Of a DNA stretch of 46,540 nt, positions 2,708 through 45,932 are shown piece after piece. The stretch's first letter is position 1, and each line of letters begins with the position of its first letter. The notes below the pieces were generated by a model, which was given only the letters and a program-made list of their open reading frames with translations, did not search any database and had not been told where the DNA came from. The position numbers and the translations under genes are program-made. The stretch is from a virus. Taxonomy: Duplodnaviria > Heunggongvirae > Uroviricota > Caudoviricetes. Location: the IMG/VR virus record IMGVR_UViG_2645727604_000006; one strand, 5' to 3'.

Positions 2708-3040
2708 ATGGAAAAGGTGATTGAAATTACCGCCCGCCGTGAGGGTTTTCGCCGCTGCGGTGTGGCACACAGTGCAACCACGAAGGCATGGCCGGTGGAT
2801 GCGTTCACCCCGGAACAGCTGGCGGTGTTGAAGGCTGACCCCATGCTGATTGTGGTGGAGCGCGATAAAGCGTCCGGTCAGAACGACGCGGCCCGGGGTG
2901 ATGAACTGGCCGCACAGCTGGATGCCGAGCGTCAGAAAGTCAGCGAACTGACGGCGCAGCTGGAAGAAGAACGCCGGAAGGTCCAGGACCTGACTGCGGA
3001 GCTTAAAGCGGCGAAGAAAGCGGACAAGAAGGAGAAGTAA
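2708..3040 (+). CDS. Mu-like virion protein with coiled-coil C-terminus
   Basis: 110-aa ORF with a C-terminal heptad-like stretch ELAAQLDAERQKVSELTAQLEEERRKVQDLTAELKAAKK. Lies in the Mu gp35-gp38 position. Confidence 0.45.
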   Translation: MEKVIEITARREGFRRCGVAHSATTKAWPVDAFTPEQLAVLKADPMLIVVERDKASGQNDAARGDELAAQLDAERQKVSELTAQLEEERRKVQDLTAELKAAKKADKKEK

Positions 3041-3043
3041 CCC

Positions 3044-3475: not shown

Positions 3476-3528
3476 TTACTGAAATTGAACGGGCGCTGGT
3501 TGAACGTCTGCGTTGTGGTCTGGGGAAA

Positions 3529-4110: not shown

Positions 4111-4324
4111 GGCGGCTCCCGGGATGAAGTTCCCGATGGAGGATAACGCCCGGAAATACATCACCACGGAAGCGGTGATCGTTGAAAACACCGCTTATTA
4201 CCGGCGCGCTGTTCAGGATGGTGACCTGATTCTGGTGGCTGAAGAGCCTGAAACGGCAGAACAGGACACCGGACCAGAAAAAGCGAAGGCGAAGAAAGAG
4301 AAACAGGTGAGCTCCGATGAGTGA
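4091..4324 (+). CDS. small Mu gp38-like protein, lysine-rich acidic C-terminus
   Basis: 77-aa ORF overlapping the sheath gene start by 8 nt (translational coupling). Confidence 0.4.
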   Translation: MNKMKVKAAPGMKFPMEDNARKYITTEAVIVENTAYYRRAVQDGDLILVAEEPETAEQDTGPEKAKAKKEKQVSSDE

Positions 4325-5738: not shown

Positions 5739-5750
5739 GGAGCCTGATAA

Positions 5751-6125
5751 ATGTCCCTGAAAGAATATATCGGCTCGATTGTGTTGGAAATTGACAGCCA
5801 GGAAATCGAGATCACCGACCTTGATGTTCAGATCAACACCGGGCGAAAGCTGGTCAAGACCATGAACAAAAGCGGCAGGGCTAAAGGCTTTGCCCGTGGC
5901 ATTGCCACCTACGAACTGTCCGTTTCGGCGGTTATTCCTGATACCAACGAGCCGGACTGGGAAAATCTGGAAGGTGTGAAAATCTCGCTGTACCCGCTCA
6001 GTAACAGCGGCAAACGCACCTCTTATCTGGACTGCTTCACAACCGAAGTGGGTGAGAAATACACCGTCGATAATGAAGCGAAAATTGATATCAAAATGGC
6101 TGCACTCAGGAAGGTGGAAGGATGA
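5751..6125 (+). CDS. tail tube protein (Mu gpM-like)
   Basis: 124-aa ORF after the sheath gene, with AAGGAG upstream. Confidence 0.7.
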   Translation: MSLKEYIGSIVLEIDSQEIEITDLDVQINTGRKLVKTMNKSGRAKGFARGIATYELSVSAVIPDTNEPDWENLEGVKISLYPLSNSGKRTSYLDCFTTEVGEKYTVDNEAKIDIKMAALRKVEG

Positions 6126-6505
6126 CGATTATCGCTACACAGACCGGCGAACTGTCCGATGGTCTGGTTTTTAACGGCACCATTCATAAAAACTTTGAGC
6201 TGCGTCTGCCGGTCATGCGTGATAACGGGCAGGCACTGGAAGAAACTGAAGAACGCTTTCAGACAGTGGACGGCTTCGCGGCGGATTATTACTACCGCTG
6301 TGCGGTAATGGCGGCAACGCTGGTCCGTCTGGGGGATATTCCGCAGGAAGAACTGACGGCGGAGCTGTTGCACGACAACATGACGCCGGAAGATTTTAAT
6401 ATTCTGCTGGCATCACGCAACGTCCTGAAGGTAAAGCGGAGCGGCGGGAATCCCGGCTCGCCGGACTCCGGCTCGCAGTCCTTATCCTCGGGCGCTACGG
6501 AATAA
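6122..6505 (+). CDS. tail assembly chaperone (Mu gp41/Y-like)
   Basis: 127-aa acidic protein between the tube and tape measure genes, the canonical chaperone position. Confidence 0.55.
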   Translation: MTIIATQTGELSDGLVFNGTIHKNFELRLPVMRDNGQALEETEERFQTVDGFAADYYYRCAVMAATLVRLGDIPQEELTAELLHDNMTPEDFNILLASRNVLKVKRSGGNPGSPDSGSQSLSSGATE

Positions 6506-6678
6506 CCGAAGAACAAATCATGACCATGAGCCGTCCCGAGCTGGACGGCTGGCTTGCCGCCGTTGACAGGCTGAACGGCGGCGGCTCAGGAAGAAAGGAC
6601 ACCTCACAGACCACCCGCCAGTCATTTAAATCCCTCAGAAAGAAACGCAGAAAAGGTAAACAGAAAAATGGCCGGTAA
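6400..6678 (+). other. -1 frame extension ORF downstream of the chaperone gene; candidate programmed-frameshift product
   Basis: The -1 frame is open from 6400 to the TAA at 6676-6678, overlaps the chaperone 3' end by 106 nt, and ends just as the tape measure gene starts (6668). It encodes ...ITEEQIMTMSRPELDGWLAAVDRLNGGGSGRKDTSQTTRQSFKSLRKKRRKGKQKNGR. The slip site is not identified. Confidence 0.35.
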
Positions 6679-8950: not shown

Positions 8951-10299
8951 TGGGCTGGGCTGAAAACCTGCAAAACGCCTCCTTTCGTGGCGTGCAGTTT
9001 GATGTACTGAACACGGATGAACAAATCAGCCGCGACCATGCGGTCTATGAATACCCGTTTGTTGACGGGGCGGATTTGCACGACCTCGGGCGCAAGGCGC
9101 GACCGTTCCGCATGACGGCGTTCCTGTGGGGGGAGTATTACGAATATAAACTCGAAAAGCTGATCGCCGCCCTGGACGAAGGCGGCGATGGTGAGCTGAT
9201 TCACCCGGTTTACGGCTCCGTACCGTCGGTGATTGTGACCGGCTACAGCATTCGCCATGACGCAGAAAGCCCGGACAGCTGCACCATCGACATGAGCTTT
9301 CTGGAGAACCGCACCGGTAGCGCGTTGTTCAGCACCCCGTTACCGGAGCTGTTCGCGCAACAGTTGTTTGATGAACTGGACACTTTACAGGCGCGGTTAA
9401 GTGATTTTTTTGATGCCGTTGCTGCACCTTTAAATACCGTTAACAGCATGATTAAAAAAGCCCAGACAGTGCGTGCCACACTGGTGAATACCCTGCTGTC
9501 TTTCAAAAGTGATTTTGTCTCCACTGTCGATAATATCGTGTCACTGGCAGGCGAACCCGGAAAATTTATCAATGAACTGGCAGAGGTGCTGGAAATCCAC
9601 ACATCAGATGTCGGGCAACCGGTGCCGGTTCTGCAACGTGTTGATTCTGCCACCCGGACCGGGTTGGCAGGAGAGACGACCGTCGCCAGTTCTGCGACAG
9701 TGATGAACTGCTGGAATAAGGTCATCACTGATATGGATGAATTTGTTGCGCTGCCTGTTGCCCTGGTCAGTGGCGATAAAGTACCGGAGGTGGTACTTCC
9801 TGCGGATGCCTCGCCAGACGATGTGCAGGATGTGAAAGCAGTTTACGCAACACAGGCCGCATCTGAACTGGCCAGTGTTGCAATGGCGATACTGGTTGAT
9901 GATGCGCAGTCAGAACAGCTTATACCGGCGGATATCGGGCGACTGGTCGGGGATGTGCGCACCCGCTTACAGGCTGCCATCACGCTGTTCCGTGAACGCT
10001 ATGAAGGCGAACGCGAACGGATAACCGAAACCGCATCACCGCTGGGGCTGATGTACCCGGAAATCATTCAGAGCATGAAAAACGTGGCGGCATCCGTGCA
10101 GGATGTCGGCCTGCTGGTTCTGTCACGCCGCCCACCGCTGACGCAGAAACAGGTGCAGGCGGACAGCTGTCTGCTGTTGCTGGCGTGGCAGTGGTACGGT
10201 GATTACAGTCGTGCGGCAGAACTGCAACGTCTGAACCCGCAGCTGCGTGACCCGAACAACATAACCGCCGGGGTGGTCATTAATGCCTACGCAAAATAA
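8950..10299 (+). CDS. Mu gpN-like DNA circulation protein
   Basis: 449-aa ORF directly after the tape measure gene (ATG overlaps its stop); the N-terminus matches the Mu N family pattern. Confidence 0.65.
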   Translation: MGWAENLQNASFRGVQFDVLNTDEQISRDHAVYEYPFVDGADLHDLGRKARPFRMTAFLWGEYYEYKLEKLIAALDEGGDGELIHPVYGSVPSVIVTGYSIRHDAESPDSCTIDMSFLENRTGSALFSTPLPELFAQQLFDELDTLQARLSDFFDAVAAPLNTVNSMIKKAQTVRATLVNTLLSFKSDFVSTVDNIVSLAGEPGKFINELAEVLEIHTSDVGQPVPVLQRVDSATRTGLAGETTVASSATVMNCWNKVITDMDEFVALPVALVSGDKVPEVVLPADASPDDVQDVKAVYATQAASELASVAMAILVDDAQSEQLIPADIGRLVGDVRTRLQAAITLFRERYEGERERITETASPLGLMYPEIIQSMKNVAASVQDVGLLVLSRRPPLTQKQVQADSCLLLLAWQWYGDYSRAAELQRLNPQLRDPNNITAGVVINAYAK

Positions 10300-11494
10300 C
10301 GAAGACAAAATCAGCCTGGTCATTGCCGGAAGGTCGCATTCTGACTGGAACAGTTATCGTATTGACAGCGATTTCCTGAAAGCTGCCGACGGCTGGCAGC
10401 TTCAGCTGGGGCTGCCTGAAAAGGTGTTCCCGGCGGATATCGTCCGGGGCGCACAAATCCGGTTGCAGGTGGGAGACGAAACGGTGCTCAGTGGGCGCAT
10501 AGACAGCGTGCGCCGCAGTGTATCCCGTCAGAGCTGCACGCTGACCCTGTCCGGGCGTGATGATGCCGCCATCCTGGTGGACTGTGCCGCGCCAGTGTTC
10601 AGCGCCAACCAGCTGACGCTGGACGAGGTCATCGACAGGATTGTCAGACCGCTGGGGATACAGCGCATCCGTATTCAGGCGTCCGGTGTGTCACGTAATG
10701 ACAAAGTCGTTATTGAGCCGGGGATGCGTGCGTGGGATGCACTGGCCAAAGCTGCCGCCGGTCGCGGCTTATGGCCGTGGTTTGAGCCTGACGGGACGCT
10801 GGTTGTGGGTGGCCCTGACTACACCACCACGCCGGTGGATACGCTGATTCTGAAGCTGAACGGCACCGGGAACAACGTGATGGAGCTGGACGATACCCGG
10901 TCCATTAACGGCTGTTTCTCCGAACTTACTGTGCTGGCCCAGAGCCACGCCCGCCGCGCAGACAGCAAGAAACAGGTGGCCGTGGTGCCGCTGGATATCT
11001 GGAACGAGGACGGCAGCGTGCGCACATTGTCCGGGCAGGACAGCGGTAATACGGACAGTGGCCAGACAGGCATTCATAACATGAAAGCCGTTGCCACCGA
11101 CCCCACCGTGGATTATTACCGCCCGCAGATAATCACCCAGGGCGACACCAGCAATCTGGAGCAAGTGAACTGGCGCGCAAAAAAAATGATGAGTGATGCC
11201 CGCCTGTCGGGGCTGGATATCGTCGCGCTGGTTGCAGGTCATCGCACGGCAGATGGTGTTCTGTGGCAGCCCGGCCAGCGGGTGCGGATTGTCAGCGAAC
11301 TCCACGGCATTGATGCCATCTTTTTCCTGATGGGGCGTGAGTTCAGCGGAGGCCGGAACGGGCAGACAACCCGGCTCCGCTTTAAGGAGGACGGCGTGTG
11401 GATACCTGATGCCTTCCCGCGCGAGAAGAAACGCCATCACCGCAGGGGCAAAAAGAAAAAAGAGGTCGCCATTGTTAAGGTCTGGGAGAAATGA
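10283..11494 (+). CDS. baseplate hub / tail protein (Mu gpP-like, P2 gpD-like)
   Basis: 403-aa ORF in the Mu P position. Confidence 0.65.
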   Translation: MPTQNNEDKISLVIAGRSHSDWNSYRIDSDFLKAADGWQLQLGLPEKVFPADIVRGAQIRLQVGDETVLSGRIDSVRRSVSRQSCTLTLSGRDDAAILVDCAAPVFSANQLTLDEVIDRIVRPLGIQRIRIQASGVSRNDKVVIEPGMRAWDALAKAAAGRGLWPWFEPDGTLVVGGPDYTTTPVDTLILKLNGTGNNVMELDDTRSINGCFSELTVLAQSHARRADSKKQVAVVPLDIWNEDGSVRTLSGQDSGNTDSGQTGIHNMKAVATDPTVDYYRPQIITQGDTSNLEQVNWRAKKMMSDARLSGLDIVALVAGHRTADGVLWQPGQRVRIVSELHGIDAIFFLMGREFSGGRNGQTTRLRFKEDGVWIPDAFPREKKRHHRRGKKKKEVAIVKVWEK

Positions 11495-12144
11495 TGTGGG
11501 ACAAAGTTAATCAGCGCGTACAGCAGGCACTGGCCGCCGTTCGCCAGGCATTCAGGGTGGTGACCGGTACGGTGGACAGTTCGACCAAAGTACAGCTGCT
11601 TCAGCTTAACGGGCTGGCAGGCGAACAGCTGGACGGTGCGGAGTATTTTCAGCATTACGGCCTCACCACATCCCCGCCGCCCGGCTCAATGGGTATTGCC
11701 GTTCCGCTGAACGGCAATACCTCCCATACTGTCGTGGTGGCCACAGAGCACGGCGCATATCGTCTGACGGAACTGAAACCCGGGGAAGTGGCCCTGTATA
11801 CCGATGAAGGCGCGAAAATCGTACTGAAGCGCGGACGGGTTATTGAAACCGAATGTGACGTTTATCGCGTGAAATGCAAACGCTACGAGGTTGAGGCAGA
11901 GGAGAACGCCACATTCACGACACCGTTACTGACAGCCAGTGACAGGCTGACGGTGGAAGGCAAAATCACCGGCAACGGTGGCATGGCCATCAGTGGGGGC
12001 AAGGGATACACTGCCACCTTTGAAGGCAATATCAACCATGTGGGTGGAGTGATTACCTCCGTTGACGTCACCATTAATGGCGTTAAAATCGGAACGCACA
12101 AACATCCAACCCCACACGGCATGTCTGACACGCCGGTTAATTAA
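11491..12144 (+). CDS. baseplate assembly/spike protein (Mu gp45-like, P2 gpV-like)
   Basis: 217-aa ORF with a glycine-rich beta region, in the Mu Q position. Confidence 0.6.
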   Translation: MMWDKVNQRVQQALAAVRQAFRVVTGTVDSSTKVQLLQLNGLAGEQLDGAEYFQHYGLTTSPPPGSMGIAVPLNGNTSHTVVVATEHGAYRLTELKPGEVALYTDEGAKIVLKRGRVIETECDVYRVKCKRYEVEAEENATFTTPLLTASDRLTVEGKITGNGGMAISGGKGYTATFEGNINHVGGVITSVDVTINGVKIGTHKHPTPHGMSDTPVN

Positions 12145-12197
12145 GTGCTGAACACCCTCACCTGATTCTGACCTGTCCATGCTGCCAGACTGGCGGC

Positions 12198-12548
12198 ATG
12201 GACCAGACGATTTCACCTGCAACCGGCGACTACGAACGCCGTCGGATTTATACCCTTCATAACGCGGTTTATCTGCGACTGGCGACGCCGCTTGGCAGTT
12301 ACTGGGCGGATGCGTCGCTGGGGTCACGCCTGCACGAGCTGAAGCGGGAAAAAGACGTTTCCCGTGTTCATAAGCTTGCGGCGCAGTATGCCAGCCAGGC
12401 ACTTCAGCCCCTGCTCGATGACGGGCGGGCAAAATCCATTACCGTTGACACAAAACCGGGGCAGCGCGGCTGGTTGTTGCTGTTAATCACCGTCACGGAT
12501 AACGCGGGCACACCGCAGACGTTTGAACACCCTGTGAGGATTATGTAA
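12198..12548 (+). CDS. baseplate protein (Mu gp46-like, P2 gpW-like)
   Basis: 116-aa ORF between the spike and J-like baseplate genes. Confidence 0.55.
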   Translation: MDQTISPATGDYERRRIYTLHNAVYLRLATPLGSYWADASLGSRLHELKREKDVSRVHKLAAQYASQALQPLLDDGRAKSITVDTKPGQRGWLLLLITVTDNAGTPQTFEHPVRIM

Positions 12549-13627
12549 TGCCGTTTCCTGTTCCGGGCGTTGCTGAAAACACAGAACGCCAGCTACGTGA
12601 TATCGCTAACGCCCTGCCGGGCGAAACCATCGACACCGGCGCTGACAGCGATTACCGCATTCGTGCAAATGCCGTATCCGGCGTGGCGGACGGACTGTAT
12701 ATGCATCAGGGGTGGATACTCCGTCAGGTGTTTCCTGATACGGCAGACCCTGAATATCTGGAGTTGCACTGCCGCACGCGCAATGTTTTTCGTAAAAAAG
12801 CAACGGCCTCATCCGGTCCGGCAGTGATTACCGGCACACCCGGTAAAACGCTGCCAGCCGGTGCGGAAATTCGTGGTGAAGGTGTCAGCGTGGCCACCGC
12901 AGCAGACTGCACCGTCGGTGATGAAGGCAGCGCAGAGGTGACGGTAAAAAGCACTGCCACGGGTGCACAGACGAATGCATCCACGACTCAGACGGCAACG
13001 CTGGTCAGCCCACCTGAAGGCATCAACAGCACGGTGACGATTAAATCCCTGACCGGCGGAACGGACAGGGAAAGCGACGCCGACCTGCTGGCGCGTTATC
13101 TGGATATTCTGCGCAGGCCGCCCGCTGGCGGTAATAAATATGATTACAAACGCTGGGCGCTGGAAGTGGATGGCGTTACGTCTGCGTATGTGGAGCCGTT
13201 GCGTCGTGGACTGGGGACGGTTGATGTGGCCATTACGTCAGCCAATGACCTCCCTTCGCAGGAACTGATTAATGCCGTGCTGGCACATATTGAGGAAGTC
13301 CGCCCGGTGACAGCGAAGGACACGATGGTGCTGGCCCCGACGAAAAAAGCCGTTGATTTCGTTGTCCGGGTAAAAACCAGTGGTCTTACTGTTGAACAGA
13401 TAAAACCACAGATAACTGAAGTTATCACGGATTTTATGAACCGGCTGGAGCCGGGGCAGGAATTAATTATTTCACAACTGGAAACTCAGATTTCATTAAT
13501 TTCTGGCGTCAGTGACCGGCGAATTATTATGCCGTCAGATAATGTAAAAGCAGTTGTCAATGAATCCACATGGGAGTGGCTGCGTCCGGGGAGTATTGAT
13601 ATCCAGCCATTTCCCCGGGAGAGTTAA
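12548..13627 (+). CDS. baseplate J-like protein (Mu gp47-like)
   Basis: 359-aa ORF whose ATG overlaps the previous stop; typical baseplate wedge size and position. Confidence 0.7.
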   Translation: MPFPVPGVAENTERQLRDIANALPGETIDTGADSDYRIRANAVSGVADGLYMHQGWILRQVFPDTADPEYLELHCRTRNVFRKKATASSGPAVITGTPGKTLPAGAEIRGEGVSVATAADCTVGDEGSAEVTVKSTATGAQTNASTTQTATLVSPPEGINSTVTIKSLTGGTDRESDADLLARYLDILRRPPAGGNKYDYKRWALEVDGVTSAYVEPLRRGLGTVDVAITSANDLPSQELINAVLAHIEEVRPVTAKDTMVLAPTKKAVDFVVRVKTSGLTVEQIKPQITEVITDFMNRLEPGQELIISQLETQISLISGVSDRRIIMPSDNVKAVVNESTWEWLRPGSIDIQPFPRES

Positions 13628-13630
13628 TAC

Positions 13631-14203
13631 ATGAATACGGTTGATTTATTTCGTGCCATGTTACCACCGGTCAGCTATGACCCGAACGGGAAATATATTT
13701 CAGCAGAACTGAACGCAGAAGCAGCCATTATGGATGAAGTAAAAGCGTCAGCTGCACGAGTGCTTGCATCTGTCACACCATTTTACGCATCCATGACGCT
13801 GTCTGACTGGGAACGAGTGTATGGAGTAATACCCCGCGACGGTGCCACACAGCAGGAACGCCGAGAAAATATTCTTATAAAGATGGCTGCAACTGGTGGG
13901 TTATCTATCCCTTATTTTAAACAACTTGCAGCCAGCCTCGGGTACACCATAACAATTACTGAACTTCATCCATTCAGAGCGGGGATAAACCGATGTGGTG
14001 ATCGTCTCTATATAACAGATGCCCGATGGATTTGGCAGGTTAATGTCACAGGAAGCAGAACGCCAGCCTACAGATTCAGAACCGGAGTATCTGCTGCCGG
14101 GGAGCCGTTACTTTCCTTTGGTGCCCCTGTACTGGAAGAAACATTTAAAGACCTTAAACCCGCTTTTACTTATTGCCATTTCACATATAAGGAGGAGCAG
14201 TAA
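13631..14203 (+). CDS. tail protein (Mu gp48-like, P2 gpI-like)
   Basis: 190-aa ORF between the baseplate J gene and the tail fibre gene. Confidence 0.6.
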
Positions 14204-15027
14204 TGCAAAATCTGATGCCCCCGATAAATACACCGGATCAATTGTTTCATGATGGTGACCCCACTCAGGGGATAGAAGGAACCCTCGTGACTGCTGGTTA
14301 TTTAAACAATCAGCAGGGGGCAACCCGTGATTTACAGCAGGAACTCCTTAATGTTCTTGGTGGTGCACATATTCAACCTGACCCCAAAAAAACGGATCAG
14401 CTACTTACCGCGCTTCGCGCGTTGCTGTTAAGCCGCAAAAATCCGTTTGGCGATATCAAATCGGACGGCACAGTACCAACGGCTCTCGAAAACCTTGGTT
14501 TGGGAGAAGGTGCTCCAGCTATTGGCGTTCCGTTCTTCTGGCCGTCCGCAGCAATGCCAGATACCGTAATCGATAGCTGGTCCAGCATGGTGTTTTTGAA
14601 GTTCAACGGCGCGAAATTCTCTGCCACTGATTACCCTGTGCTGGCGAAAGTGTTTCCGGCGCTGGCATTACCTGACGCACGCGGTGATTTCATTCGTATC
14701 TGGGATGACGGGCGCGGGATTGATGTCGGACGTACCCTACTTTCAGGGCAATCACACACAATTATGGATCATGCACACAATATGGAATTGTGGACGGGGG
14801 ACGGGCTTGCCGCAGGAAGTGCACGGGAAGGAGTAAACCCAGGAATACTGGCTACATATGGTGACGGGGGAATAGTTAAAACGGACGAACCCGGTCTTAA
14901 GGTGCCTTCCTCACTACGAGCTCTTAGCTCTCGTAGTGTTAAACGTTATGGTGAAATTAGTGGACATGTAGGTACAGAAACCCGTCCACGAAATATTGCA
15001 TTTAACTTTCTGGTGAGGGCTAAATAA
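14203..15027 (+). CDS. tail fibre protein: constant N-terminal part fused to the currently expressed variable part
   Basis: 274-aa ORF. The crossover site at 14484-14509 lies inside the gene (about codon 94-102). The C-terminus [16 protein letters not shown] resembles tail-fibre tips. Confidence 0.75.
14484..14509 (+). repeat. left crossover site of the invertible segment (gix/cix/hix-like)
   Basis: TCTCGAAAACCTTGGTTTGGGAGAAG. The core TTGGTTTGGGAGAAG (14495-14509) recurs as its exact reverse complement at 16379-16393. Confidence 0.65.
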
Positions 15028-15620
15028 TGAAACCTGTTTTTGATGAAAATGGGCTGGCTACAGTGCCGGGTGATATGCGTTGTTTTTATTATGATGCAGT
15101 AACGTCTGAATATACGGGCTGGTCTGATGAATATATTAATACTGGCGTAAGTATGCCCGCCTGTTCCACTGGTATTGACCCGGGCGAATACATTCCGGGG
15201 AAAGTGGCAGTATTTACGGGTAAGGGATGGCGCCATGAAGAAGACCACCGCAATGAGACTGTTTACTCAATCGAAAATGGCGCAGCTGTTACAGTGGATT
15301 ATATCGGTGCCATCAAAGACGGTTATGTCACGCTTTCACCGTTAACGCCATACGATAAATGGGATGGTGAGAAATGGGTGACGGATACCGAGGCACAGCA
15401 TAGCGCCGCACTAGACGCGGCAGAAGTAAAGCGCCAGTCGCTGATTGATGCTGCAATGGCTTCCATCAGTCTGATTCAGCTGAAATTACGAGCCGGGCGG
15501 AAGCTGACGCAGGCAGAAACCACCCGACTTAACGCTGTGCTGGATTACATTGACGCGGTGGAGGCAACAGATACCAGCACCGCGCCTGATGTCATCTGGC
15601 CTGAACTGCCGGAGGCGTAG
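15027..15620 (+). CDS. tail fibre assembly chaperone (Tfa, U-like)
   Basis: 197-aa ORF immediately after the fibre gene. Its C-terminus (LDYIDAVEATDTSTAPDVIWPELPEA) is paralogous to that of the minus-strand Tfa. Confidence 0.75.
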   Translation: MKPVFDENGLATVPGDMRCFYYDAVTSEYTGWSDEYINTGVSMPACSTGIDPGEYIPGKVAVFTGKGWRHEEDHRNETVYSIENGAAVTVDYIGAIKDGYVTLSPLTPYDKWDGEKWVTDTEAQHSAALDAAEVKRQSLIDAAMASISLIQLKLRAGRKLTQAETTRLNAVLDYIDAVEATDTSTAPDVIWPELPEA

Positions 15621-16032
15621 GCCATTCAATATCTGGCGCACCGGAAGTATCGACCAGTTCCAGTGCGTCCAGATAATCCAGCCACAAATTATATTGCGCC
15701 AGTTCCTCACCTTTCAGGCGACCAATCGCCGCTTTACCAGGCCATTGCTTACTGTTTATGTATTCGTTGACCTGATTAATCAATTGCTGCTTTTCCAGTT
15801 CGGCTGCGGCAATTTGTTCCTCATGAGTTGGCGGTGGAATATCAATCCATGCAGGCATTCCGTCGATGACACCTCTGTATTTTCCTTCTGGTGCTTCCTT
15901 CATAAATTCGGCGGCAACAGTGTCGTCAATTTCGATTCCATCATCGGGCCATTCACCGGATTCCTGATAAGCGATTTTAAGCTCCACAGGGAAAAACGCA
16001 TTTTTATCGGCACTGAAAATATATTTCTGCAT
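15592..16032 (-). CDS. alternative tail fibre assembly chaperone (U'-like)
   Basis: 146-aa ORF ending LDYLDALELVDTSGAPDIEWPTPPAVQAR, convergent with the + Tfa and overlapping it by 29 bp. Confidence 0.7.
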   Translation of the reverse strand: MQKYIFSADKNAFFPVELKIAYQESGEWPDDGIEIDDTVAAEFMKEAPEGKYRGVIDGMPAWIDIPPPTHEEQIAAAELEKQQLINQVNEYINSKQWPGKAAIGRLKGEELAQYNLWLDYLDALELVDTSGAPDIEWPTPPAVQAR

Positions 16033-16034
16033 TT

Positions 16035-16433
16035 CTACCGTCCTATCGAAATATAACTGAATCTGTATTGCTGTGAGATATCACTGGTTGCCACACGCCA
16101 CGCTGAATTACTGATATGTTCAAAATTTACAGACAAAACCTGCGGGGCAGGATTCGACGGGTCTGACTGAACGGCATCAGACATAACACTGACTGAAACC
16201 ATCGGCTGATTAGGGAATGGTATAGGGAAGTGTCCACTGATAAAGCGGGTCGTGTTTCCTGAAAAAGTGCCAAACTGAACAATATATCCACCTGGTAGCC
16301 TGAACCATCCCGAACCAGAAGCGAATGCTCCCATATCCGGTATCTGATTATCTCCTGTGCCCACATCCCTTTTCGCCGCTTCTCCCAAACCAACGTTTAA
16401 GAAAATGCAGAGATTACGGCTAACTGGCATCAT
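16035..16433 (-). CDS. alternative tail-fibre variable segment (S'-like); silent in this orientation
   Basis: Minus-strand ORF running through the right crossover site. It encodes NVGLGEAAKRD at the site, matching [10 protein letters not shown] in the + fibre gene. No constant N-terminal part is attached in this orientation. Confidence 0.6.
   Translation of the reverse strand: MMPVSRNLCIFLNVGLGEAAKRDVGTGDNQIPDMGAFASGSGWFRLPGGYIVQFGTFSGNTTRFISGHFPIPFPNQPMVSVSVMSDAVQSDPSNPAPQVLSVNFEHISNSAWRVATSDISQQYRFSYISIGR
16379..16405 (+). repeat. right crossover site of the invertible segment, inverted
   Basis: CTTCTCCCAAACCAACGTTTAAGAAAA, whose reverse complement contains TTGGTTTGGGAGAAG. Confidence 0.65.
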
Positions 16434-16460
16434 CTCCGGTTTTTATTCAGGGGGATGCTC

Positions 16461-16556
16461 ATGCTTATTGGCTATGTACGCGCATCAACAAATGACCAGG
16501 ACACCGATTTACAACGCAATGCGTTGAACTGTGCAGGATATGAGCTGATTTTTTGA
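16461..16556 (+). pseudogene. truncated Din-family serine DNA invertase (Gin/Pin/Cin-like); only the first 31 codons remain
   Basis: Encodes MLIGYVRASTNDQDTDLQRNALNCAGYELIF then TGA, which matches the conserved N-terminus of Gin/Pin/Cin invertases (MLIGYVRVSTNDQ...). Similarity stops near codon 31; downstream sequence is unrelated. Confidence 0.75.
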
Positions 16557-16652: not shown

Positions 16653-17253
16653 AAAAAAACGCGAAGTTACAAACCGTTTGTCGCAACAGCTGGTGGTCAG
16701 TGTCGCTGCACACCTGTTGTTACGGCATGAATGCAGATTACCAAATCACCTGGCTGTAAGTAACCACAGAGAACTTTACCTGACTGTGGGGGGCGAGTTG
16801 TGCAGGAACTTAACCGCTGGTTTCGTGACGGAAGAGGACTTTATGTTCATGTTATTCGTTGGGAGCCAGAAACACAGCGCGTTATCTATCTTCGCAAAGA
16901 CTACCCGCATGAGTGCTTTAGTCCTTTGTGGAAATTCAGGCGTGATTTTGTTGAGTGTGAAGGACCACCAGCATATTGATTCTGCAATTCCGGGACGTTA
17001 CACTGTTCAGGCACCTTATAAAGCGGGTGCCGGGATTGGCGTCCTGAAATTGTCAACGGCGATGTATGACGCGCCAGCGTCTTTTTTATCGTCCGCATTT
17101 GCTCACATCCAGATTATGGTGGGCTGGGCGGGGGCACCGAAAGGTGCGCCGGTCTCCGTTGACGCCGGTTACGCCAACCCCGTCCAGTTCACCACCAGTG
17201 AAATTGGCGTTTCCGGTGGTGGAAGTTTTTCACTGTCAACGGAGGCTGCCATC

Positions 17254-17811
17254 ATGGCTACGATCCAAGCCCTCACTCAACCTGAAATCACCATTGACAA
17301 CGGCCAGGCCGTTACCACTTCTTTGGCTGTTGCCAACTTCTTCTCCAAGCGTCACGACGATGTGCTGAAAAAGATCCGCACTCTGGATTGTTCCCCTGAG
17401 TTTTGTGCCCGCAATTTTGCGGAGACATCGATTTCGGTAAATCAACCGAACGGTGGTACACGCAAGCTCCCTTGCTATCAAATCACACGAGACGGTTTTG
17501 CGTTTCTTGCTATGGGTTTCACGGGTAAACGTGCTGCCCGGTTCAAAGAGGCATACATCAATGCCTTTAACCAGATGGAAAAACTGCTTTCAAAGCCATC
17601 CACGCTGAGCGATGCCGCAGATAACGCCAGCGTGCTTTACTCCCACCTGTCGGTAATCCACAAGGTCTGGCTGCAGCAGCTTTATCCTATGTTGGCAAAA
17701 GCTGAATCTCCGCTGGCTGTTAGCTTATATGATTATATTAATGATGCTTCGGCGCTGGCCTGCCTCATAAATTTGTCGCTGAACCCTTCAGAGGTAAGGG
17801 GGCGCAAATGA
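17254..17811 (+). CDS. Rha-family phage regulatory protein
   Basis: The N-terminus MATIQALTQPEITIDNGQAVTTSLAVANFFSKRHDDVLKKIR fits the Rha pattern. GGAGG at 17241-17245 lies 8 nt before the ATG. The frame is open much further upstream (track ORF from 16678), but that part does not look protein-like. Confidence 0.6.
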   Translation: MATIQALTQPEITIDNGQAVTTSLAVANFFSKRHDDVLKKIRTLDCSPEFCARNFAETSISVNQPNGGTRKLPCYQITRDGFAFLAMGFTGKRAARFKEAYINAFNQMEKLLSKPSTLSDAADNASVLYSHLSVIHKVWLQQLYPMLAKAESPLAVSLYDYINDASALACLINLSLNPSEVRGRK

Positions 17812-40758: not shown

Positions 40759-41502
40759 ATGACAGAGACAGAATCAGCGATTCTGGCGCACGCCCGGCGA
40801 TGTGCGCCAGCGGAGTCGTGCGGCTTCGTGGTGAGAACGCCGGAGGGGGAAAGATATTTTCCCTGCGTGAATATCTCCGGTGAGCCGGAGGAGTATTTCC
40901 GGATGTCGCCGGAGGACTGGCTGCAGGCAGAAATGCAGGGTGAGATTGTGGCGCTGGTCCACAGTCACCCCGGTGGTCTGCCCTGGCTGAGTGAGGCCGA
41001 TCGGCGGCTGCAGGTGCAGAGTGATTTGCCGTGGTGGCTGGTCTGCCGGGGGGCGATTTACAAGTTCCGCTGTGTGCCACATCTTACCGGGCGGCGCTTT
41101 GAGCACGGGGTGACGGACTGTTACACGCTGTTCCGGGATGCTTACCATCTGGCGGGGATTGAGATGCCGGATTTTCATCGCGAGGATGACTGGTGGCGTA
41201 ACGGTCAGAATCTCTATCTGGATAATCTGGAGGCCACAGGGCTGTATCAGGTGCCGTTGTCAGCGGCGCAGCCGGGCGATGTGCTGCTGTGCTGTTTTGG
41301 TTCATCGGTGCCGAATCATGCCGCCATTTACTGTGGTGACGGCGAGCTGCTGCACCATATTCCTGAACAACTGAGCAAACGAGAGAGGTATACCGACAAA
41401 TGGCAGCGACGCACACACTCCCTCTGGCGTCACCGGGCATGGCACGCATCTGCCTTTACGGGGATTTACAACGATTTGGTCGCCGCATCGACCTTCGTGT
41501 GA
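40759..41502 (+). CDS. tail assembly protein K-like (JAB/MPN plus NlpC/P60 domains)
   Basis: MTETESAILAHARRCAPAESCGFVV...HSHPGG is a JAMM-like motif; lambda K position. Confidence 0.8.
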   Translation: MTETESAILAHARRCAPAESCGFVVRTPEGERYFPCVNISGEPEEYFRMSPEDWLQAEMQGEIVALVHSHPGGLPWLSEADRRLQVQSDLPWWLVCRGAIYKFRCVPHLTGRRFEHGVTDCYTLFRDAYHLAGIEMPDFHREDDWWRNGQNLYLDNLEATGLYQVPLSAAQPGDVLLCCFGSSVPNHAAIYCGDGELLHHIPEQLSKRERYTDKWQRRTHSLWRHRAWHASAFTGIYNDLVAASTFV

Positions 41503-42041
41503 AAACGGGGGCTGAAGCCATCCGGGCGCTGGCCACGCAGCTTCCGGCGTTTCGCCAGAAACTGAATGAGGGCTGGTATCAGGTGCGCATTTCCGGGCGT
41601 GATGCAGGCGAAAACGAATTATCTGCCCGTCTTAATGAGCCGCTGGCAAATGGTGCCGTGATCCACATCGTACCGCGTCTGGCGGGTGCCAAAAGTGGCG
41701 GTATTTTTCAGGCAGTGCTGGGTGCGGCGCTAATTGCTACGGCAATCTGGATGCCGGGGCTTAGTATTGTTGCAAGTAATCTCATGTTCTCTCTTGGGGC
41801 AGGTATGGTTTTAGGCGGTGTTGCGCAGATGCTGGCACCGAAAGCCAAAACGCCTAAAGTGTCAGCCACTGATAACGGTAAGCAAAATACCTATTTTTCC
41901 TCATTGGATAACATGGTTGCCCAGGGCAATGTCCTGCCTGTTCTGTACGGTGAAATGCGCGTGGGGTCACGTGTGGCATCTCAGGAGATCAGCACGGCAG
42001 ATGAAGGGGATGGTGGTCAGGTTGTGGTAATTGGGCGGTAA
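41400..42041 (+). CDS. tail assembly protein I-like
   Basis: Contains ARICLYGDLQRFGRRIDL and a hydrophobic C-terminal half. Alternative start at ATG 41439; overlaps the 3' end of K. Confidence 0.75.
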   Translation: MAATHTLPLASPGMARICLYGDLQRFGRRIDLRVKTGAEAIRALATQLPAFRQKLNEGWYQVRISGRDAGENELSARLNEPLANGAVIHIVPRLAGAKSGGIFQAVLGAALIATAIWMPGLSIVASNLMFSLGAGMVLGGVAQMLAPKAKTPKVSATDNGKQNTYFSSLDNMVAQGNVLPVLYGEMRVGSRVASQEISTADEGDGGQVVVIGR

Positions 42042-42113
42042 TATTATTTACTCATGTTCTAACTGATTTAATATTTATATCGAACACTGATAATTATTCT
42101 GTTGGTTAGCTAT

Positions 42114-42452
42114 ATGAACAAAACGATTTTATTCTGCACGATTATTGCCTTAACAGGATGTAAATCTTTGGATTACGTAAAATCCGGCAAGCCTGTAATG
42201 GAAGGTAATTCATTAAAAAATATTGATGAATTGTCAGGCTGCATATCCAGACAATGGGCTGGTAATGGAACACCTATAACATCCCTTCCTATTGAGAATG
42301 GGGTAAGCCTTTTAGTTCCACAGGCTATGGGTGGGTATGATGTTGTGCTTGATATCAAAAAAGCAGGAAATGGCAGTAGTTTTACTCTTTATGAACGCGT
42401 ACCAGCATTAACGCCAAAAATTTTTGCTGATAGTGTTAATGCATGTAAATAA
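42114..42452 (+). CDS. lipoprotein of unknown function (moron between tail genes I and J)
   Basis: MNKTILFCTIIALTGCKS is a signal peptide with lipobox. Markedly AT-rich gene and flanks. Own terminator downstream. Confidence 0.55.
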   Translation: MNKTILFCTIIALTGCKSLDYVKSGKPVMEGNSLKNIDELSGCISRQWAGNGTPITSLPIENGVSLLVPQAMGGYDVVLDIKKAGNGSSFTLYERVPALTPKIFADSVNACK

Positions 42453-42476
42453 TAGTTAATCCTGCCGTAACTCATG

Positions 42477-42504
42477 AGCCGCCTTTTGGGCGGCTTTGTT
42501 GTTT
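42477..42504 (+). terminator. intrinsic terminator after the lipoprotein moron
   Basis: AGCCGCC-TTTTG-GGCGGCT followed by TTGTTGTTT. Confidence 0.45.
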
Positions 42505-42518
42505 ATGGAGTGTGAGGA

Positions 42519-45500
42519 ATGGGTAAAGGTAGCAGTAAGGGGCATACCCCGCGCGAAGCGAAGGACAACCTGAAGTCCACGCAGCTGCTGAGTGTGATCG
42601 ATGCCATCAGCGAAGGGCCGGTTGAAGGTCCGGTGGATGGATTAAAAAGCGTGCTGCTGAACAGTACGCCGGTGCTGGACAGTGAGGGGAATACCAATAT
42701 CTCCGGCGTCACGGTGGTGTTCCGGGCAGGTGAGCAGGAGCAGACACCGCCTGAGGGCTTTGAATCCTCCGGCTCCGAGACGGTGCTGGGTACGGAAGTG
42801 AAATATGACACGCCGATCACCCGGACCATCACGTCGGCAAACATTGACCGTCTGCGTTTTACTTTCGGCGTGCAGGCACTGGTGGAAACCACCTCAAAGG
42901 GTGACCGGAATCCGTCGGAAGTCCGCCTGCTGGTTCAGATACAACGTAACGGTGGCTGGGTGACGGAAAAAGACATCACCATTAAGGGCAAAACCACGTC
43001 GCAGTATCTGGCCTCGGTGGTGGTGGATAACCTGCCGCCGCGCCCGTTCAATATCCGGATGCGCAGGATGACGCCGGACAGCACCACAGACCAGCTGCAG
43101 AACAAAACGCTCTGGTCGTCATACACCGAAATCATCGATGTGAAACAGTGCTACCCGAACACGGCACTGGTCGGCGTGCAGGTGGACTCGGAGCAGTTCG
43201 GCAGCCAGCAGGTGAGCCGTAATTATCATCTTCGCGGGCGCATTCTGCAGGTGCCGTCGAACTATAACCCGCAGACGCGGCAATACAGCGGTATCTGGGA
43301 CGGAACGTTAAAACCGGCATACAGCAACAACCCGGCCTGGTGTCTGTGGGATATGCTGACCCATCCGCGCTACGGCATGGGGAAACGTCTTGGTGCGGCG
43401 GATGTGGATAAATGGGCGCTGTATGTCATCGGCCAGTACTGCGACCAGTCGGTGCCGGACGGCTTTGGCGGCACGGAGCCGCGCATCACCTGTAATGCCT
43501 GGCTGACCACGCAGCGCAAGGCGTGGGATGTGCTCAGTGATTTCTGCTCGGCGATGCGCTGTATGCCGGTATGGAACGGGCAGACGCTGACGTTCGTGCA
43601 GGACCGACCATCAGATAAGGTGTGGACCTATAACCGCAGTAATGTGGTGATGCCGGATGATGGCGCGCCGTTCCGCTACAGCTTCAGCGCCCTGAAGGAC
43701 CGCCATAATGCCGTTGAGGTGAACTGGATTGACCCGGACAATGGCTGGGAGACGGCAACAGAGCTTGTGGAGGACACGCAGGCCATTGCCCGTTACGGTC
43801 GTAACGTCACGAAGATGGATGCCTTTGGCTGTACCAGCCGGGGGCAGGCACACCGCGCCGGGCTGTGGCTGATTAAAACAGAACTGCTGGAAACGCAGAC
43901 CGTGGACTTCAGCGTGGGCGCAGAAGGGCTTCGCCATGTGCCGGGCGATGTCATTGAAATCTGTGATGATGACTATGCCGGTATCAGCATCGGCGGGCGC
44001 GTGCTGGCGGTAAACAGCCAGACCCGGACGCTGACGCTCGACCGTGAAATCACGCTGCCATCCTCCGGTACCACGCTGATAAGCCTGGTTGACGGAAGTG
44101 GCAATCCGGTCAGCGTGGAGGTTCAGTCCGTCACCGACGGCGTGAAGGTGAAAGTGAGCCGTGTTCCTGACGGCGTTGCTGAATACAGCGTATGGGGGCT
44201 GAAGCTGCCGACGTTGCGCCAGCGCCTGTTCCGCTGCGTGAGTATCCGTGAGAACGACGACGGCACGTATGCCATCACCGCCGTGCAGCATGTGCCGGAA
44301 AAAGAGGCCATCGTGGATAACGGGGCGCACTTTGACGGCGACCTGAGCGGCACGGTGAATGGTGTCACGCCGCCAGCGGTGCAGCACCTGATCGCAGAAG
44401 TCACTGCAGACAGCGGGGAATATCAGGTGCTGGCGCGATGGGACACGCCGAAGGTGGTGAAGGGTGTGAGCTTTATGCTTCGCCTGACTGTGGCAGCAGA
44501 CGACGGCAGTGAGCGGCTGGTCAGCACGGCCCGGACGACGGAAACCACATACCGCTTCACGCAACTGGCCCTGGGAAACTACAGGCTGACAGTCCGGGCG
44601 GCAAATGCCTGGGGGCAGCAGGGCGATCCGGCATCGGTATCGTTCCGGATTGCCGCACCGGCAGCACCGTCGCGGATTGAGCTGACGCCGGGCTATTTTC
44701 AGATAACCGCAACGCCGCATCTTGCCGTTTATGATCCGACGGTACAGTTTGAGTTCTGGTTCTCGGAAAAGCGGATTGCGGATATCAGGCAGGTTGAAAC
44801 CACAGCCCGCTATCTTGGCACGGCGCTGTACTGGATAGCCGCCAGTATCAATATCAAACCGGGCCATGATTATTATTTTTATATCCGTAGTGTGAACACT
44901 GTTGGCAAATCGGCATTTGTGGAGGCTGTCGGTCGGGCGAGCGATGATGCGGAAGGTTACCTGGATTTTTTCAAAGGCCAGATAACCGAATCCCATCTCG
45001 GCAAGGAGCTGCTGGAAAAAGTCGAGCTGACGGAGGATAACGCCAGCAGACTGGAGGAGTTTTCGAAAGAGTGGAAGGACGCCAACGATAAGTGGAATGC
45101 CATGTGGGCTGTCAAAATTGAGCAGACCAAAGACGGCAAACATTATGTCGCGGGTATTGGCCTCAGCATGGAGGACACGGAGGAAGGCAAACTGAGTCAG
45201 TTTCTGGTTGCCGCTAACCGTATCGCATTTATTGACCCGGCAAACGGGAATGAAACGCCGATGTTTGTGGCGCAGGGCAATCAGATATTTATGAACGACG
45301 TGTTCCTGAAGCGCCTGACGGCCCCGACCATTACCAGTGGTGGAAATCCACCGGCATTTTCCCTGACATCAGACGGAAAGCTGACCGCTAAAAATGCGGA
45401 TATCAGTGGCAGAGTGAATGCGAACGCCGGGACGCTCAACAATGTCACGGTAAATGAAAACTGTACGATTAAGGGCATGCTGGAGGCGACTCAGGTCAGA

Positions 45501-45932
45501 GGTGACTTCGTTAAAGCTGTATCCAAATCATTTCCGAAACAGGCTGGTACGTGGGGTAACACGGAAACACCAAACGGGACGGTTACAGTCACCATCAGCG
45601 ATGATCATAACTTTGACCGTCAAATCATTATTCCGCCCATTATCTTTAACGGAATAGCGTATAGCTATCCGGGAAGTGGTAATAACCCGGGAGGTACAAG
45701 ATACACGGGTTATGGTTTTGAAGTTCGCAAAAACGGTGTATTAATCGCATCCAGAGAAACTAAAGGGGCCATTCCCGGTAGCTACAGTGCGGTTATTGAT
45801 ATGCCGAGTGGCAGGGGAAGCGTCACTCTGGAGTTTAAGGTTTTCCATAAAGGCAATCAGTGGGCAGGTAATATCACCGACTGTACGGTGATTGTGACCA
45901 AAAAAGCCGCTTCCGGCATCAGTATTCGTTGA
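42519..45932 (+). CDS. host specificity / central tail fibre protein J-like
   Basis: 1137 aa after the K and I genes; lambda J-like organisation including fibronectin-like repeats. Confidence 0.9.

What the first reader, a model, noticed from the sequence alone, without database searches (positions are those of the whole stretch)
42042..42518. AT-rich lipoprotein moron inserted between tail assembly gene I and host-specificity gene J
Lambda has no gene between I and J. Here a 112-aa lipoprotein gene (lipobox LTGC) with strongly AT-rich sequence, its own upstream AT-rich promoter-like region and a downstream terminator sits between them. Small prophage lipoproteins in tail regions (Cor, Llp types) often block the phage receptor to give superinfection exclusion. 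This one is longer and not recognisably Cor-like.
Basis: partly seen in the sequence, partly recalled or inferred. Interest (0 to 1): 0.55.

Follow-up and report, generated by a model that had tools for sequence, protein, structure and literature searches.

The report
Uncharacterised lipoprotein cassette in prophage tail
A small extra gene wedged between two tail genes of a lambda-like E. coli prophage encodes an outer-membrane lipoprotein of an uncharacterised family; similar genes in other phages block further infection, but its function here is untested and it does not follow the usual receptor-blocker pattern.

Summary
Window 42114-42452 (+) encodes a 112-aa prolipoprotein (lipobox LTGC, Cys16, Lys at +2) at 37% GC, between tail genes I and J (56-60% GC), where lambda has a 60-nt spacer. 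It is a real accessory gene. About 6% of complete E. coli genomes carry it. Relatives at 50-60% identity occur in Klebsiella, Kluyvera, Enterobacter and Serratia phages, and in phiKO2 as Gp19, which its depositors called a "putative moron". There is no Pfam, PADLOC or PDB sequence match; PHROG 914 has no assigned function. The fold is a small helix-grip-like alpha/beta domain.

- The "terminator" is the hairpin already present in lambda's empty I-J spacer.
- The promoter is no better than AT-richness predicts.
- A leader hairpin hides the start codon or Shine-Dalgarno, here and in diverged cassettes.

The same protein sits beside at least four different J receptor-binding domains, so a Cor/Llp-type blocker matched to J's receptor is unlikely. 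The gene almost always lies next to I, whose product is proposed to insert into the outer membrane. I favour envelope-level phage exclusion after receptor binding, at about 40%. Function is untested.

The parts
41439..42041 (+). Tail tip gene I (context; RefSeq start 41439, longest ORF from 41400). Upstream neighbour of the insert.
   Evidence: PF06805 Lambda_tail_I, E 1.7e-23. Annotated as tail assembly protein in an identical genome.
42042..42113 (+). 72-nt AT-rich leader. It is the left part of the insert relative to lambda. It holds the only promoter candidate (-35 TTTACT 42047-42052, 16-nt spacer, -10 TAATAT 42069-42074), which is unproven.
   Evidence: Alignment with lambda's I-J spacer. 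The consensus scan finds no + strand site. PWM score is 9.7, reached by 6 of 232 tiles of the window but by 471 of 2000 shuffles of the spacer.
42052..42117 (+). Predicted leader hairpin. 42052-42057 pairs with 42112-42117, which includes the AUG at 42114-42116. 42059-42067 pairs with 42101-42109. It would occlude the start codon and the -5 to -13 region.
   Evidence: MFE -15.1 kcal/mol, z -3.1, 0 of 200 shuffles fold as well. The three polymorphisms that fall in stems keep pairing, but only on one side, which is statistically uninformative. Analogous Shine-Dalgarno-sequestering hairpins with different sequences occur in Klebsiella, Kluyvera, Enterobacter, phiAH14a and IMG/VR cassettes, z -2.8 to -6.2.
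42114..42452 (+). Lipoprotein gene, 112 aa. Signal peptide is aa 1-15 (42114-42158), lipobox LTGC, lipidated Cys16 (42159-42161), Lys at +2. The mature protein is 97 aa, 10.3 kDa, with conserved Cys43 and Cys111.
   Evidence: PHROG 914, E 7e-33. AF2 model pLDDT 85.8.
42476..42506 (+). GC-rich hairpin (9 bp, loop 3) followed by a T-rich tract. It looks like a terminator, and it is homologous to the hairpin of the empty I-J spacer in lambda and PhiR49_1.
42519..45932 (+). Host-specificity gene J (context). The C-terminal receptor-binding domain is of the PhiR49_1 / Stx1a-Stx2c phage type.

Best explanation
What it is (shown). A roughly 430-bp horizontally acquired cassette lies in the I-J spacer of a lambda-like prophage tail operon. 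It encodes a prolipoprotein of an uncharacterised family (PHROG 914; phiKO2 Gp19). Where the protein goes (inferred from established rules). Signal peptidase II and Lgt should process it at LTG|C. With no Asp at +2, the Lol pathway should place it in the outer membrane. Two invariant Cys suggest a periplasmic disulfide. It is therefore not a virion part. What it does (inference). It changes the periplasmic face of the outer membrane of the lysogen or the infected cell, so that lambda-like siphophages cannot complete entry. It may also stop progeny phages being triggered on envelope debris. The blocked step is not set by J's receptor-binding domain. The step I favour is outer-membrane penetration by the ejected tail-tip plug gpI, or by the tape-measure protein that follows it. 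The cassette is encoded next to these genes in almost every phage that carries it. How it is expressed (inference). Translation is gated by a leader hairpin that hides the start codon or Shine-Dalgarno. The hairpin could be opened in two ways. One is by ribosomes terminating on the upstream tail gene, which would couple expression to late genes. In this E. coli version the other is transcripts that start at the weak internal promoter candidate and so lack the 5' arm.
For: Accessory status: absent from lambda and from all 108 phage records with this junction, present at about 4% of 8690 E. coli I-J junctions, with low GC. Lipoprotein features are conserved across 33 family members and none has Asp at +2. 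The position varies: I-J in 59 of 59 E. coli viral loci; K-(cargo)-lpp-I in 75 of 75 Fraca-type loci and in Klebsiella, Kluyvera, phiKO2 and a 28%-identical relative; between T and H, the slot of the HK97 gp15 exclusion moron, in Enterobacter (PMC3594210). In Pseudomonas phage phiAH14a a family member lies in the early/immunity-side region directly upstream of a second full-length gpI paralogue. The gene is uncoupled from J's receptor-binding domain: at least four J C-terminal types occur with the same protein. gpI is a virion plug whose hydrophobic helices are proposed to insert into the outer membrane (PMC11101478 and PMC12617516). Precedents exist: the periplasmic outer-membrane lipoproteins Llp and Rtp45 exclude phages, and gp15 excludes without touching the receptor and depends on tail features. 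RBS-occluding hairpins recur with different sequences.
Confidence: 0.4

Rival explanations
1. Lysogenic-conversion factor for the host, in the manner of lambda Bor or Lom. The outer-membrane lipoprotein would improve serum resistance, adhesion, envelope stress tolerance or lipid handling, with no role in phage exclusion.
For: It lies in the same tail-end neighbourhood as lom. It is carried by pathogenic lineages: O104:H4, O55:H7 and NU14. It has non-phage chromosomal homologues. Its fold neighbours include the Francisella lipoprotein Flpp3, the BamC N-domain and lipid-binding KA1/START-like domains.
Against: Linkage to I/H across very different phages and hosts is hard to explain by a host-specific virulence role. 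Family members also occur in soil and Antarctic Pseudomonas and Serratia phages. It has no similarity to Bor.
Confidence: 0.25
2. Classical Cor/Llp/Rtp45-type receptor masker. It would bind the periplasmic side of the outer-membrane protein used by this phage's J and thereby prevent adsorption.
For: It is a small outer-membrane lipoprotein encoded next to the receptor-binding gene, as for llp-oad, cor and rtp45.
Against: An identical protein occurs with at least four J C-terminal domains. The window's J type exists in phages without it. In most relatives it is separated from J by I, or sits next to H. It is about 60% larger than the roughly 6-kDa Rtp45 and has an unrelated fold; the only sequence match to Llp (8a60_B) is the signal peptide, E 1.4.
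Confidence: 0.12
3. Late-phase helper of the phage's own cycle. It would be translated together with K/I and act in the periplasm. For example, it could restrain the cell-wall peptidase domain of K-like proteins as an immunity-like inhibitor, or condition the outer membrane for lysis.
For: In the K-I slot the anti-Shine-Dalgarno arm starts at K's stop codon, as expected for translational coupling to a late gene. No promoter is evident there. K carries JAB and NlpC/P60 domains.
Against: Most lambda-like phages do without it. K is not known to be exported, and its location in the virion is unknown. The E. coli copies lie after I, not after K.
Confidence: 0.08
4. Structural or assembly component of the tail tip.
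For: It is always found inside tail gene clusters, co-oriented with them.
Against: It has a Sec/SPase II signal and lipobox, so it is exported, while tails assemble in the cytoplasm. It is absent from lambda and from more than 90% of nearly identical I-J junctions. Its position varies. Copies disrupted by frameshift or IS3 exist.
Confidence: 0.02

Closest known systems
phiKO2 Gp19 / PHROG 914 (also Escherichia phage Fraca VUF53278, Serratia phage OS31 p54)
   Same: Homologous family: about 112 aa, a lipobox, two further invariant Cys, low GC and a following hairpin terminator, located inside lambda-like tail-tip gene clusters. Gp19 is annotated 'putative moron gene product; similar to Xanthomonas gene XCC2962'. 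OS31 p54 was suggested to be a Cor analogue.
   Different: Those genes sit between K and I. The E. coli gene sits between I and J and shares only about 28% identity with Fraca. None has a tested function.
Cor (phi80, N15, HK022, T1), Llp (T5) and Rtp45 (Rtp) superinfection-exclusion lipoproteins
   Same: Phage-encoded lipoproteins of the inner leaflet of the outer membrane, encoded near tail-tip or receptor-binding genes.
   Different: There is no sequence similarity. The mature protein is 10.3 kDa against roughly 6 kDa for Rtp45. The fold is helix-grip-like alpha/beta. It is not paired with a particular receptor-binding domain. A target is unknown.
HK97 gp15 moron
   Same: A tail-operon moron with bacterial non-phage homologues. 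It excludes phages without blocking the receptor and depends on the incoming tail. The Enterobacter homologue of the present gene occupies exactly the gp15 slot between T and H.
   Different: gp15 is an inner-membrane, YebO-like protein, not a lipoprotein, and there is no homology.
Lambda Bor (PF06291)
   Same: A small prophage-encoded outer-membrane lipoprotein.
   Different: No Pfam match. bor lies in the lysis region and acts in serum resistance.
Flpp3 (DUF3568), BamC N-domain, DUF302, KA1 domains

Membership tests
Moron (Juhala/Hendrix definition as given in PMC3594210) | Extra DNA between genes that are adjacent in related phages | tested here: met
   Lambda and PhiR49_1 have a 60-nt I-J spacer; the window has 477 nt. 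None of 108 phage records carries it.
Moron (Juhala/Hendrix definition as given in PMC3594210) | Base composition differs from the surrounding genes | tested here: met
   GC 0.37 against 0.56/0.60. The same holds for the Klebsiella, Kluyvera and Enterobacter cassettes.
Moron (Juhala/Hendrix definition as given in PMC3594210) | Own terminator | tested here: inconclusive
   A hairpin with T-run follows the gene, but a homologous hairpin is present at empty I-J sites. Cassettes in other slots do carry a hairpin of their own.
Moron (Juhala/Hendrix definition as given in PMC3594210) | Own promoter | tested here: inconclusive
   No consensus-scan hit. The best PWM candidate is matched by 24% of shuffles. 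K-I slot relatives have no candidate above background.
Moron (Juhala/Hendrix definition as given in PMC3594210) | Expression from the repressed prophage | not testable with these tools
   Needs RNA-seq or 5'RACE of a lysogen.
Bacterial lipoprotein (SPase II substrate, Lol-sorted) | n-region, hydrophobic core and lipobox [LVI][ASTVI][GAS]C | tested here: met
   MNK / TILFCTIIA / LTGC. A lipobox is found in 32 of 33 family members.
Bacterial lipoprotein (SPase II substrate, Lol-sorted) | Residue at +2 is not Asp (outer-membrane sorting) | tested here: met
   Lys here; A/K/S/T/G/L/E in relatives, never Asp.
Bacterial lipoprotein (SPase II substrate, Lol-sorted) | Actual lipidation and cleavage | not testable with these tools
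   Needs globomycin sensitivity, palmitate labelling or a C16A mutant.
PHROG 914 / phiKO2 Gp19 family | Full-length profile match | tested here: met
   phrog_914 E 7.3e-33 over 1-112. The Fraca member gives hhalign probability 99.1% against the family alignment. Fraca matches phiKO2 Gp19 at 48.6% identity.
Cor / Llp / Rtp45 exclusion lipoproteins | Sequence or profile similarity | tested here: not met
   phrog_914 is the only PHROG hit at E up to 1. No Pfam hit. The PDB profile search matches only the signal peptide of Llp 8a60_B, E 1.4, and nothing for Rtp45.
Cor / Llp / Rtp45 exclusion lipoproteins | Cognate pairing with the receptor-binding protein variant | tested here: not met
   At least four J C-terminal types occur with the same lipoprotein among 43 loci.
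Cor / Llp / Rtp45 exclusion lipoproteins | Binds the phage's outer-membrane receptor and blocks adsorption | not testable with these tools
   Needs adsorption assays or pull-downs.
Lambda Bor (PF06291) | Pfam match | tested here: not met
   No Pfam families at E up to 1.
Structural tail-tip protein | Present in all phages that share the tail module; cytoplasmic | tested here: not met
   Absent from more than 90% of near-identical junctions. It carries an export signal.
Known anti-phage defence systems (PADLOC-DB 2.0) | Profile match | tested here: not met
   No families.

The most novel reading that the evidence does not exclude
The family is a receptor-independent exclusion device. A periplasm-facing outer-membrane lipoprotein would intercept the ejected tail-tip plug gpI (or the tape-measure C-terminus bound to it) as it breaches the outer membrane. 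This would explain three things: why the gene travels next to I or H rather than with J's receptor-binding domain; why a Pseudomonas phage keeps a lipoprotein plus gpI-paralogue pair beside its repressor; and why translation is gated by an RBS-occluding hairpin that is opened by ribosomes finishing the upstream tail gene.
Probability: 0.15. Interest if true: 0.75.

Novelty: new member of a known kind. Interest (0 to 1): 0.45.

Why it matters
The gene is carried by about one in sixteen complete E. coli genomes, including the O104:H4 outbreak lineage, O55:H7 and the uropathogen NU14. Relatives are common in Klebsiella and Enterobacter prophages. No member has a known function, and databases call it 'hypothetical'. 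If it excludes phages, it would be a fourth type of phage outer-membrane exclusion lipoprotein. Unlike Cor, Llp and Rtp45, it would not be tied to one receptor. That matters for predicting the host range of therapeutic and temperate siphophages. It would also give a genetic handle on a poorly understood step: how the lambda tail tip (gpI/gpH) crosses the outer membrane. If it is instead a host-fitness factor, it joins Bor and Lom as prophage cargo in pathogenic lineages.

Tried and rejected
- Sequence libraries. Pfam, NCBIfam and PADLOC gave nothing, apart from a VirB7 signal-peptide match at E 0.08.
- PDB sequence profile search. It returned only signal-peptide matches.
- tblastn of the E. 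coli protein against 50,697 phage records. There was no hit at 1e-5. At E up to 1 it found only Fraca and LMessi, which led to the K-I subfamily.
- Large proteins that hit residues 14-58 in the representative search. These are repeats in giant lectin/cadherin-type proteins that lack the Cys; I treat them as a motif coincidence amplified by repetition.
- JGI's 'YceK' names for distant members. No Pfam match supports them.
- Rfam. Only sub-threshold chance hits: mir-236 and GcvB at 19-22 bits.
- Covariation test of the leader hairpin. Five alleles give only one-sided changes, so it is uninformative.
- The search for related loci with the diverse alignment failed for lack of a conserved block. 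The genome-contig scan returned a single locus. P0022 found nothing in viral contigs.
- The phiKO2 paper (PMC355964) is not held. No paper mentions the RefSeq accessions or phrog_914.

Full report
**1. The observation**

Window 42114-42452 (+) is an ORF of 112 codons, MNKTILFCTIIALTGCKSLDY.... It has a charged n-region, a hydrophobic core and the lipobox L-T-G-C, with Cys16 at 42159-42161. GC falls to 0.35-0.41 across 42000-42500, against 0.55-0.62 on both sides.

The neighbours are gene I (PF06805, E 1.7e-23) and gene J, which matches six gpJ-specific Pfam domains. K lies further upstream and carries JAB and NlpC/P60 domains. Lambda and PhiR49_1 have only 60 nt between I and J.

How common the insert is:
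- All 108 phage records that match the junction lack it.
- Among 5426 complete E. coli genomes, 4292 have the junction (8690 places), and 334-337 have the insert at 95-100% identity.
- Carriers include O55:H7 CB9615, O104:H4 2009EL-2050 and NU14. In all of them it is annotated 'hypothetical protein'.

**2. A real gene, but two accessory details need correcting**

Evidence that it is a gene:
- In 67 copies collected from genomes and IMG/VR, 64 are intact. Three are frameshifted or truncated, and one further copy is split by an IS3.
- Variant codons are 11 synonymous against 6 non-synonymous.
- Homologues at 50-62% identity occur in Klebsiella, Kluyvera, Enterobacter and Jejubacter. More distant ones go down to 22%. 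All keep the length, the lipobox and two further Cys, C43 and C111, which are invariant in 31 sequences.
- No member has Asp at +2. By the E. coli Lol rule this predicts outer-membrane sorting.

The terminator. The hairpin at 42476-42496 plus T-tract is real. It aligns with the hairpin in lambda's own empty I-J spacer. A hairpin, a T-run and then 'TATGGAG' precede J in lambda, PhiR49_1, phiKO2, a Klebsiella prophage and phage Fraca. So the hairpin is native to the site. The insert proper runs from about 42042 to about 42470.

The promoter. The consensus scan finds no + strand promoter upstream. My position-weight scan uses matrices recalled from memory and is therefore approximate. Its best candidate is TTTACT (42047), 16 nt, TAATAT (42069). 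That score ranks among the top 6 of 232 tiles of the window, but 24% of shuffles of the AT-rich spacer reach it.

**3.

The leader folds so that 42052-42057 pairs with the AUG region (42112-42117) and 42059-42067 pairs with 42101-42109. The fold has an energy of -15.1 kcal/mol and z -3.1; none of 200 shuffles folds as well. The three polymorphisms that fall in stems keep pairing, but they are one-sided changes and five alleles prove nothing.

The stronger evidence comes from diverged cassettes. Different sequences form hairpins that bury the Shine-Dalgarno:
- Klebsiella: UCUUUUGU / ACAAGGGA, z -5.2.
- Kluyvera type: UCUUCUUU / AAAGGAGA, z -2.8 to -6.2.
- IMG/VR loci L092 and L129: z about -3.7 to -4.0.
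- Enterobacter: CCUCC / GGAGG.
- Pseudomonas phage phiAH14a: GAUCCCUCC / GGAGGGAUU, z -3.6.

In the K-I slot the 5' arm begins at K's stop codon. That is the geometry expected for translational coupling to the upstream late gene. In Fraca-type loci with an extra small ORF, the stop-to-start gap is only 6 nt and no hairpin is present.

In the window, the candidate promoter would start transcripts near 42081, inside the loop. Such transcripts would lack the occluding arm. This dual-mode idea is inference only.

**4. What the protein is**

Library and sequence searches:
- No Pfam, NCBIfam or PADLOC family matches.
- PHROG 914, 'unknown function', matches end to end at E 7e-33.
- No solved structure is related by sequence. 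The only match to T5 Llp is the signal peptide.

- DUF302 and KA1 domains.

These give no functional call. BFVD points to a protein of Pseudomonas phage phiAH14a (E 1e-5, TM 0.83 normalised by the target's length).

**5. Where relatives sit**

| Group | Position of the lipoprotein gene (lpp) | Calls |
|---|---|---|
| E. coli, 59 of 59 IMG/VR loci and all genomes examined | I-lpp-J. Tail modules are mosaic: the tape measure is 23-30% or 96-100% identical to the window's | 80 |
| Klebsiella, Kluyvera, phiKO2, a 28%-identical relative | K-lpp-I | 22, 45, 46, 93 |
| All 75 loci of the Fraca/P0025 subfamilies | K-(0 to 4 kb of other cargo)-lpp-I-J | 85, 87, 88 |
| Enterobacter and related loci | Between T and the tape measure, the slot of the HK97 gp15 moron | 23, 80; PMC3594210, |
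| One distant member | On the opposite strand, inside a head module | 44 |
| Dyella-like bacteria, 21-25% identity | Chromosomal, in a conserved non-phage neighbourhood (ppnN-lpp-gspH-uvrB) | 41, 43 |

In phiAH14a the true 115-aa lipoprotein ORF is split in the annotation into p34 and p33. It lies on the repressor side of the early region. It is followed by a terminator and then by a second full-length gpI paralogue. That paralogue is 79% identical to the tail-cluster gpI, and the alignment is identical from about residue 145 to the C-terminus. In the tail cluster itself, the K-I gap holds an unrelated lipoprotein.

Earlier annotators reached the same general idea. phiKO2 Gp19 is labelled 'putative moron gene product; similar to Xanthomonas gene XCC2962'. 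Serratia phage OS31 p54 was proposed to be a Cor analogue (PMC7556043). I found no experiment on any member.

**6. Testing the receptor-blocker idea**

Cor, Llp and Rtp45 each act on the receptor of their own phage (PMC12685063). That predicts pairing with the receptor-binding domain.

Among 43 E. coli loci with a complete J, the same lipoprotein (or a variant differing by one or two residues) accompanies four J C-terminal clusters:
- 1159-aa type: 30 loci.
- 1137-aa type: 7 loci, including the window.
- 1132-aa type: 4 loci.
- 1084-aa type, with an unrelated C-terminus: 2 loci.

These types are 56-69% identical over the last 250 residues, where they can be aligned at all. The first 800 residues of J are 97-100% identical.

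The window's type is 98-99.6% identical to that of PhiR49_1 and of Stx1a/Stx2c phages. Those phages lack the gene.

Receptors for these types are not known to me, so a shared receptor cannot be excluded. Even so, the pattern argues against a cognate receptor masker.

**7. Most likely mechanism**

Shown:
- It is an accessory, exported lipoprotein.
- Its family moves between slots in tail-tip clusters.
- It is not coupled to J's receptor-binding domain.
- Its translation start is structurally occluded.

Established knowledge:
- gpI is a trimeric plug in the lambda tip.
- On receptor binding the plug opens. Its two hydrophobic helices are proposed to insert into the outer membrane, followed by gpH, which forms the periplasmic channel (PMC11101478 and PMC12617516).
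- HK97 gp15 shows that a tail-operon moron can exclude phages after adsorption, in a way that depends on the tail.

Inference: a lipoprotein on the periplasmic face of the outer membrane, genetically linked to I or H, is well placed to interfere with that penetration step. It could act on superinfecting phages, or on progeny meeting envelope debris.

| Claim | Probability |
|---|---|
| Accessory lipoprotein cassette | ~0.9 |
| Envelope-level phage exclusion | ~0.4 |
| The specific gpI/gpH step | ~0.15 |

Rivals: a host-fitness factor like Bor or Lom (0.25), a classical receptor masker (0.12), a late-phase helper or immunity-like inhibitor of K (0.08), and a structural role (0.02).

**8. Comparison and novelty**

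The gene is a member of the PHROG 914 / phiKO2 Gp19 family, in a new slot (I-J). It may work like Cor, Llp, Rtp45 or gp15. It is not a member of any of those families, because both sequence similarity and pairing with the receptor-binding domain were tested and not met.

I rate it a new member of a known kind: a tail-operon accessory lipoprotein already flagged as a putative moron. The function is open.

The new observations are:
- the lack of coupling to J's receptor-binding domain;
- the near-constant adjacency to I;
- the lipoprotein plus gpI-paralogue pair in phiAH14a;
- the recurrent RBS-occluding hairpins.

**Verdict**

This is a real and fairly common but uncharacterised prophage cargo gene. 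The 'own promoter and terminator' and 'receptor blocker' parts are not supported as stated. Interest is moderate (0.45).

Noticed in passing
window 1-16500: The first ~16 kb encodes late genes of a Mu-like myophage: Mu I protease 208-1389, gpT head 1796-2704, Gp37 3529-4110, sheath 4317-5738, tape measure 6668-8950, DNA circulation 8950-10299, gpP baseplate 10283-11494 and baseplate J 12548-13627. These directly abut lambdoid early genes (Rha/Ash ORF 16678-17811). In strain E2, which has an identical late region, the left side instead holds an integrase beside tRNA-Leu and yjjG. This looks like two prophages in tandem or nested.
   Followed up: partly
window 42476-42518; L003, L179, L178, L004, L028: A hairpin, a T-run and then 'TATGGAG/C' lie immediately upstream of J in lambda, PhiR49_1, phiKO2, a Klebsiella prophage and Fraca. 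The same module lies upstream of I when the lipoprotein gene precedes I. Fraca's lpp-I and I-J hairpins are nearly identical. The module could be an attenuator or mRNA-end element of the tail operon, or a recombination joint for cassette insertion.
   Followed up: partly
L029 5962-6945 (Pseudomonas phage phiAH14a KU708004, record 13998-15036): A family lipoprotein (true ORF 115 aa, annotated as two fragments p34 and p33) and a second full-length gpI paralogue (p32, 79% identical to tail gene p84, with an identical C-terminal ~50 residues) sit downstream of the repressor in the early region. It is unclear whether this is a functional exclusion pair or a recombination relic.
   Followed up: partly
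L031 25239-25661 (phiAH14a p83); L028 4677-4946 (Fraca); L091, L166, L177: The K-I junction is a cargo hotspot. It holds an unrelated 140-aa lipoprotein in phiAH14a, an 89-aa ORF upstream of the lipoprotein gene in 27 Fraca-type loci, and up to 2.8-4.4 kb of other DNA between K and the lipoprotein gene in some loci.
   Followed up: no
L021 3075-4669 (E. coli OkiPb01675): An Arc / Arc / Ant (P22 immI-like antirepressor) module is inserted between tail genes L and K of a prophage that also carries the I-J lipoprotein. IMG/VR loci L035, L076, L078 and L081 also show about 1.5-1.7 kb of extra DNA in the L-K-I region; its content was not examined.
   Followed up: no
L026 4808-5970 (E. coli GN05476): An IS3 element has replaced the 5' half of the lipoprotein gene, and gene I is frameshifted. 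Three further copies carry frameshifts or a premature stop. The gene is therefore dispensable in decaying prophages.
   Followed up: no
window 42153-42281 (protein residues 14-56): This segment resembles a roughly 94-residue tandem repeat (consensus ...GDTLTASNTLADADGLSGxIxYQWQRNGSxI) in giant lectin/cadherin-type proteins such as P0023, 2161 aa. I judge it a motif coincidence amplified by repetition, because the Cys is not conserved.
   Followed up: partly
window 40759-42041: K (40759-41502) and I (start 41439, or 41400 for the longest ORF) overlap by 64-103 nt in different frames. RefSeq annotations differ in the I start between genomes (I of 603 nt or 576 nt).
   Followed up: no
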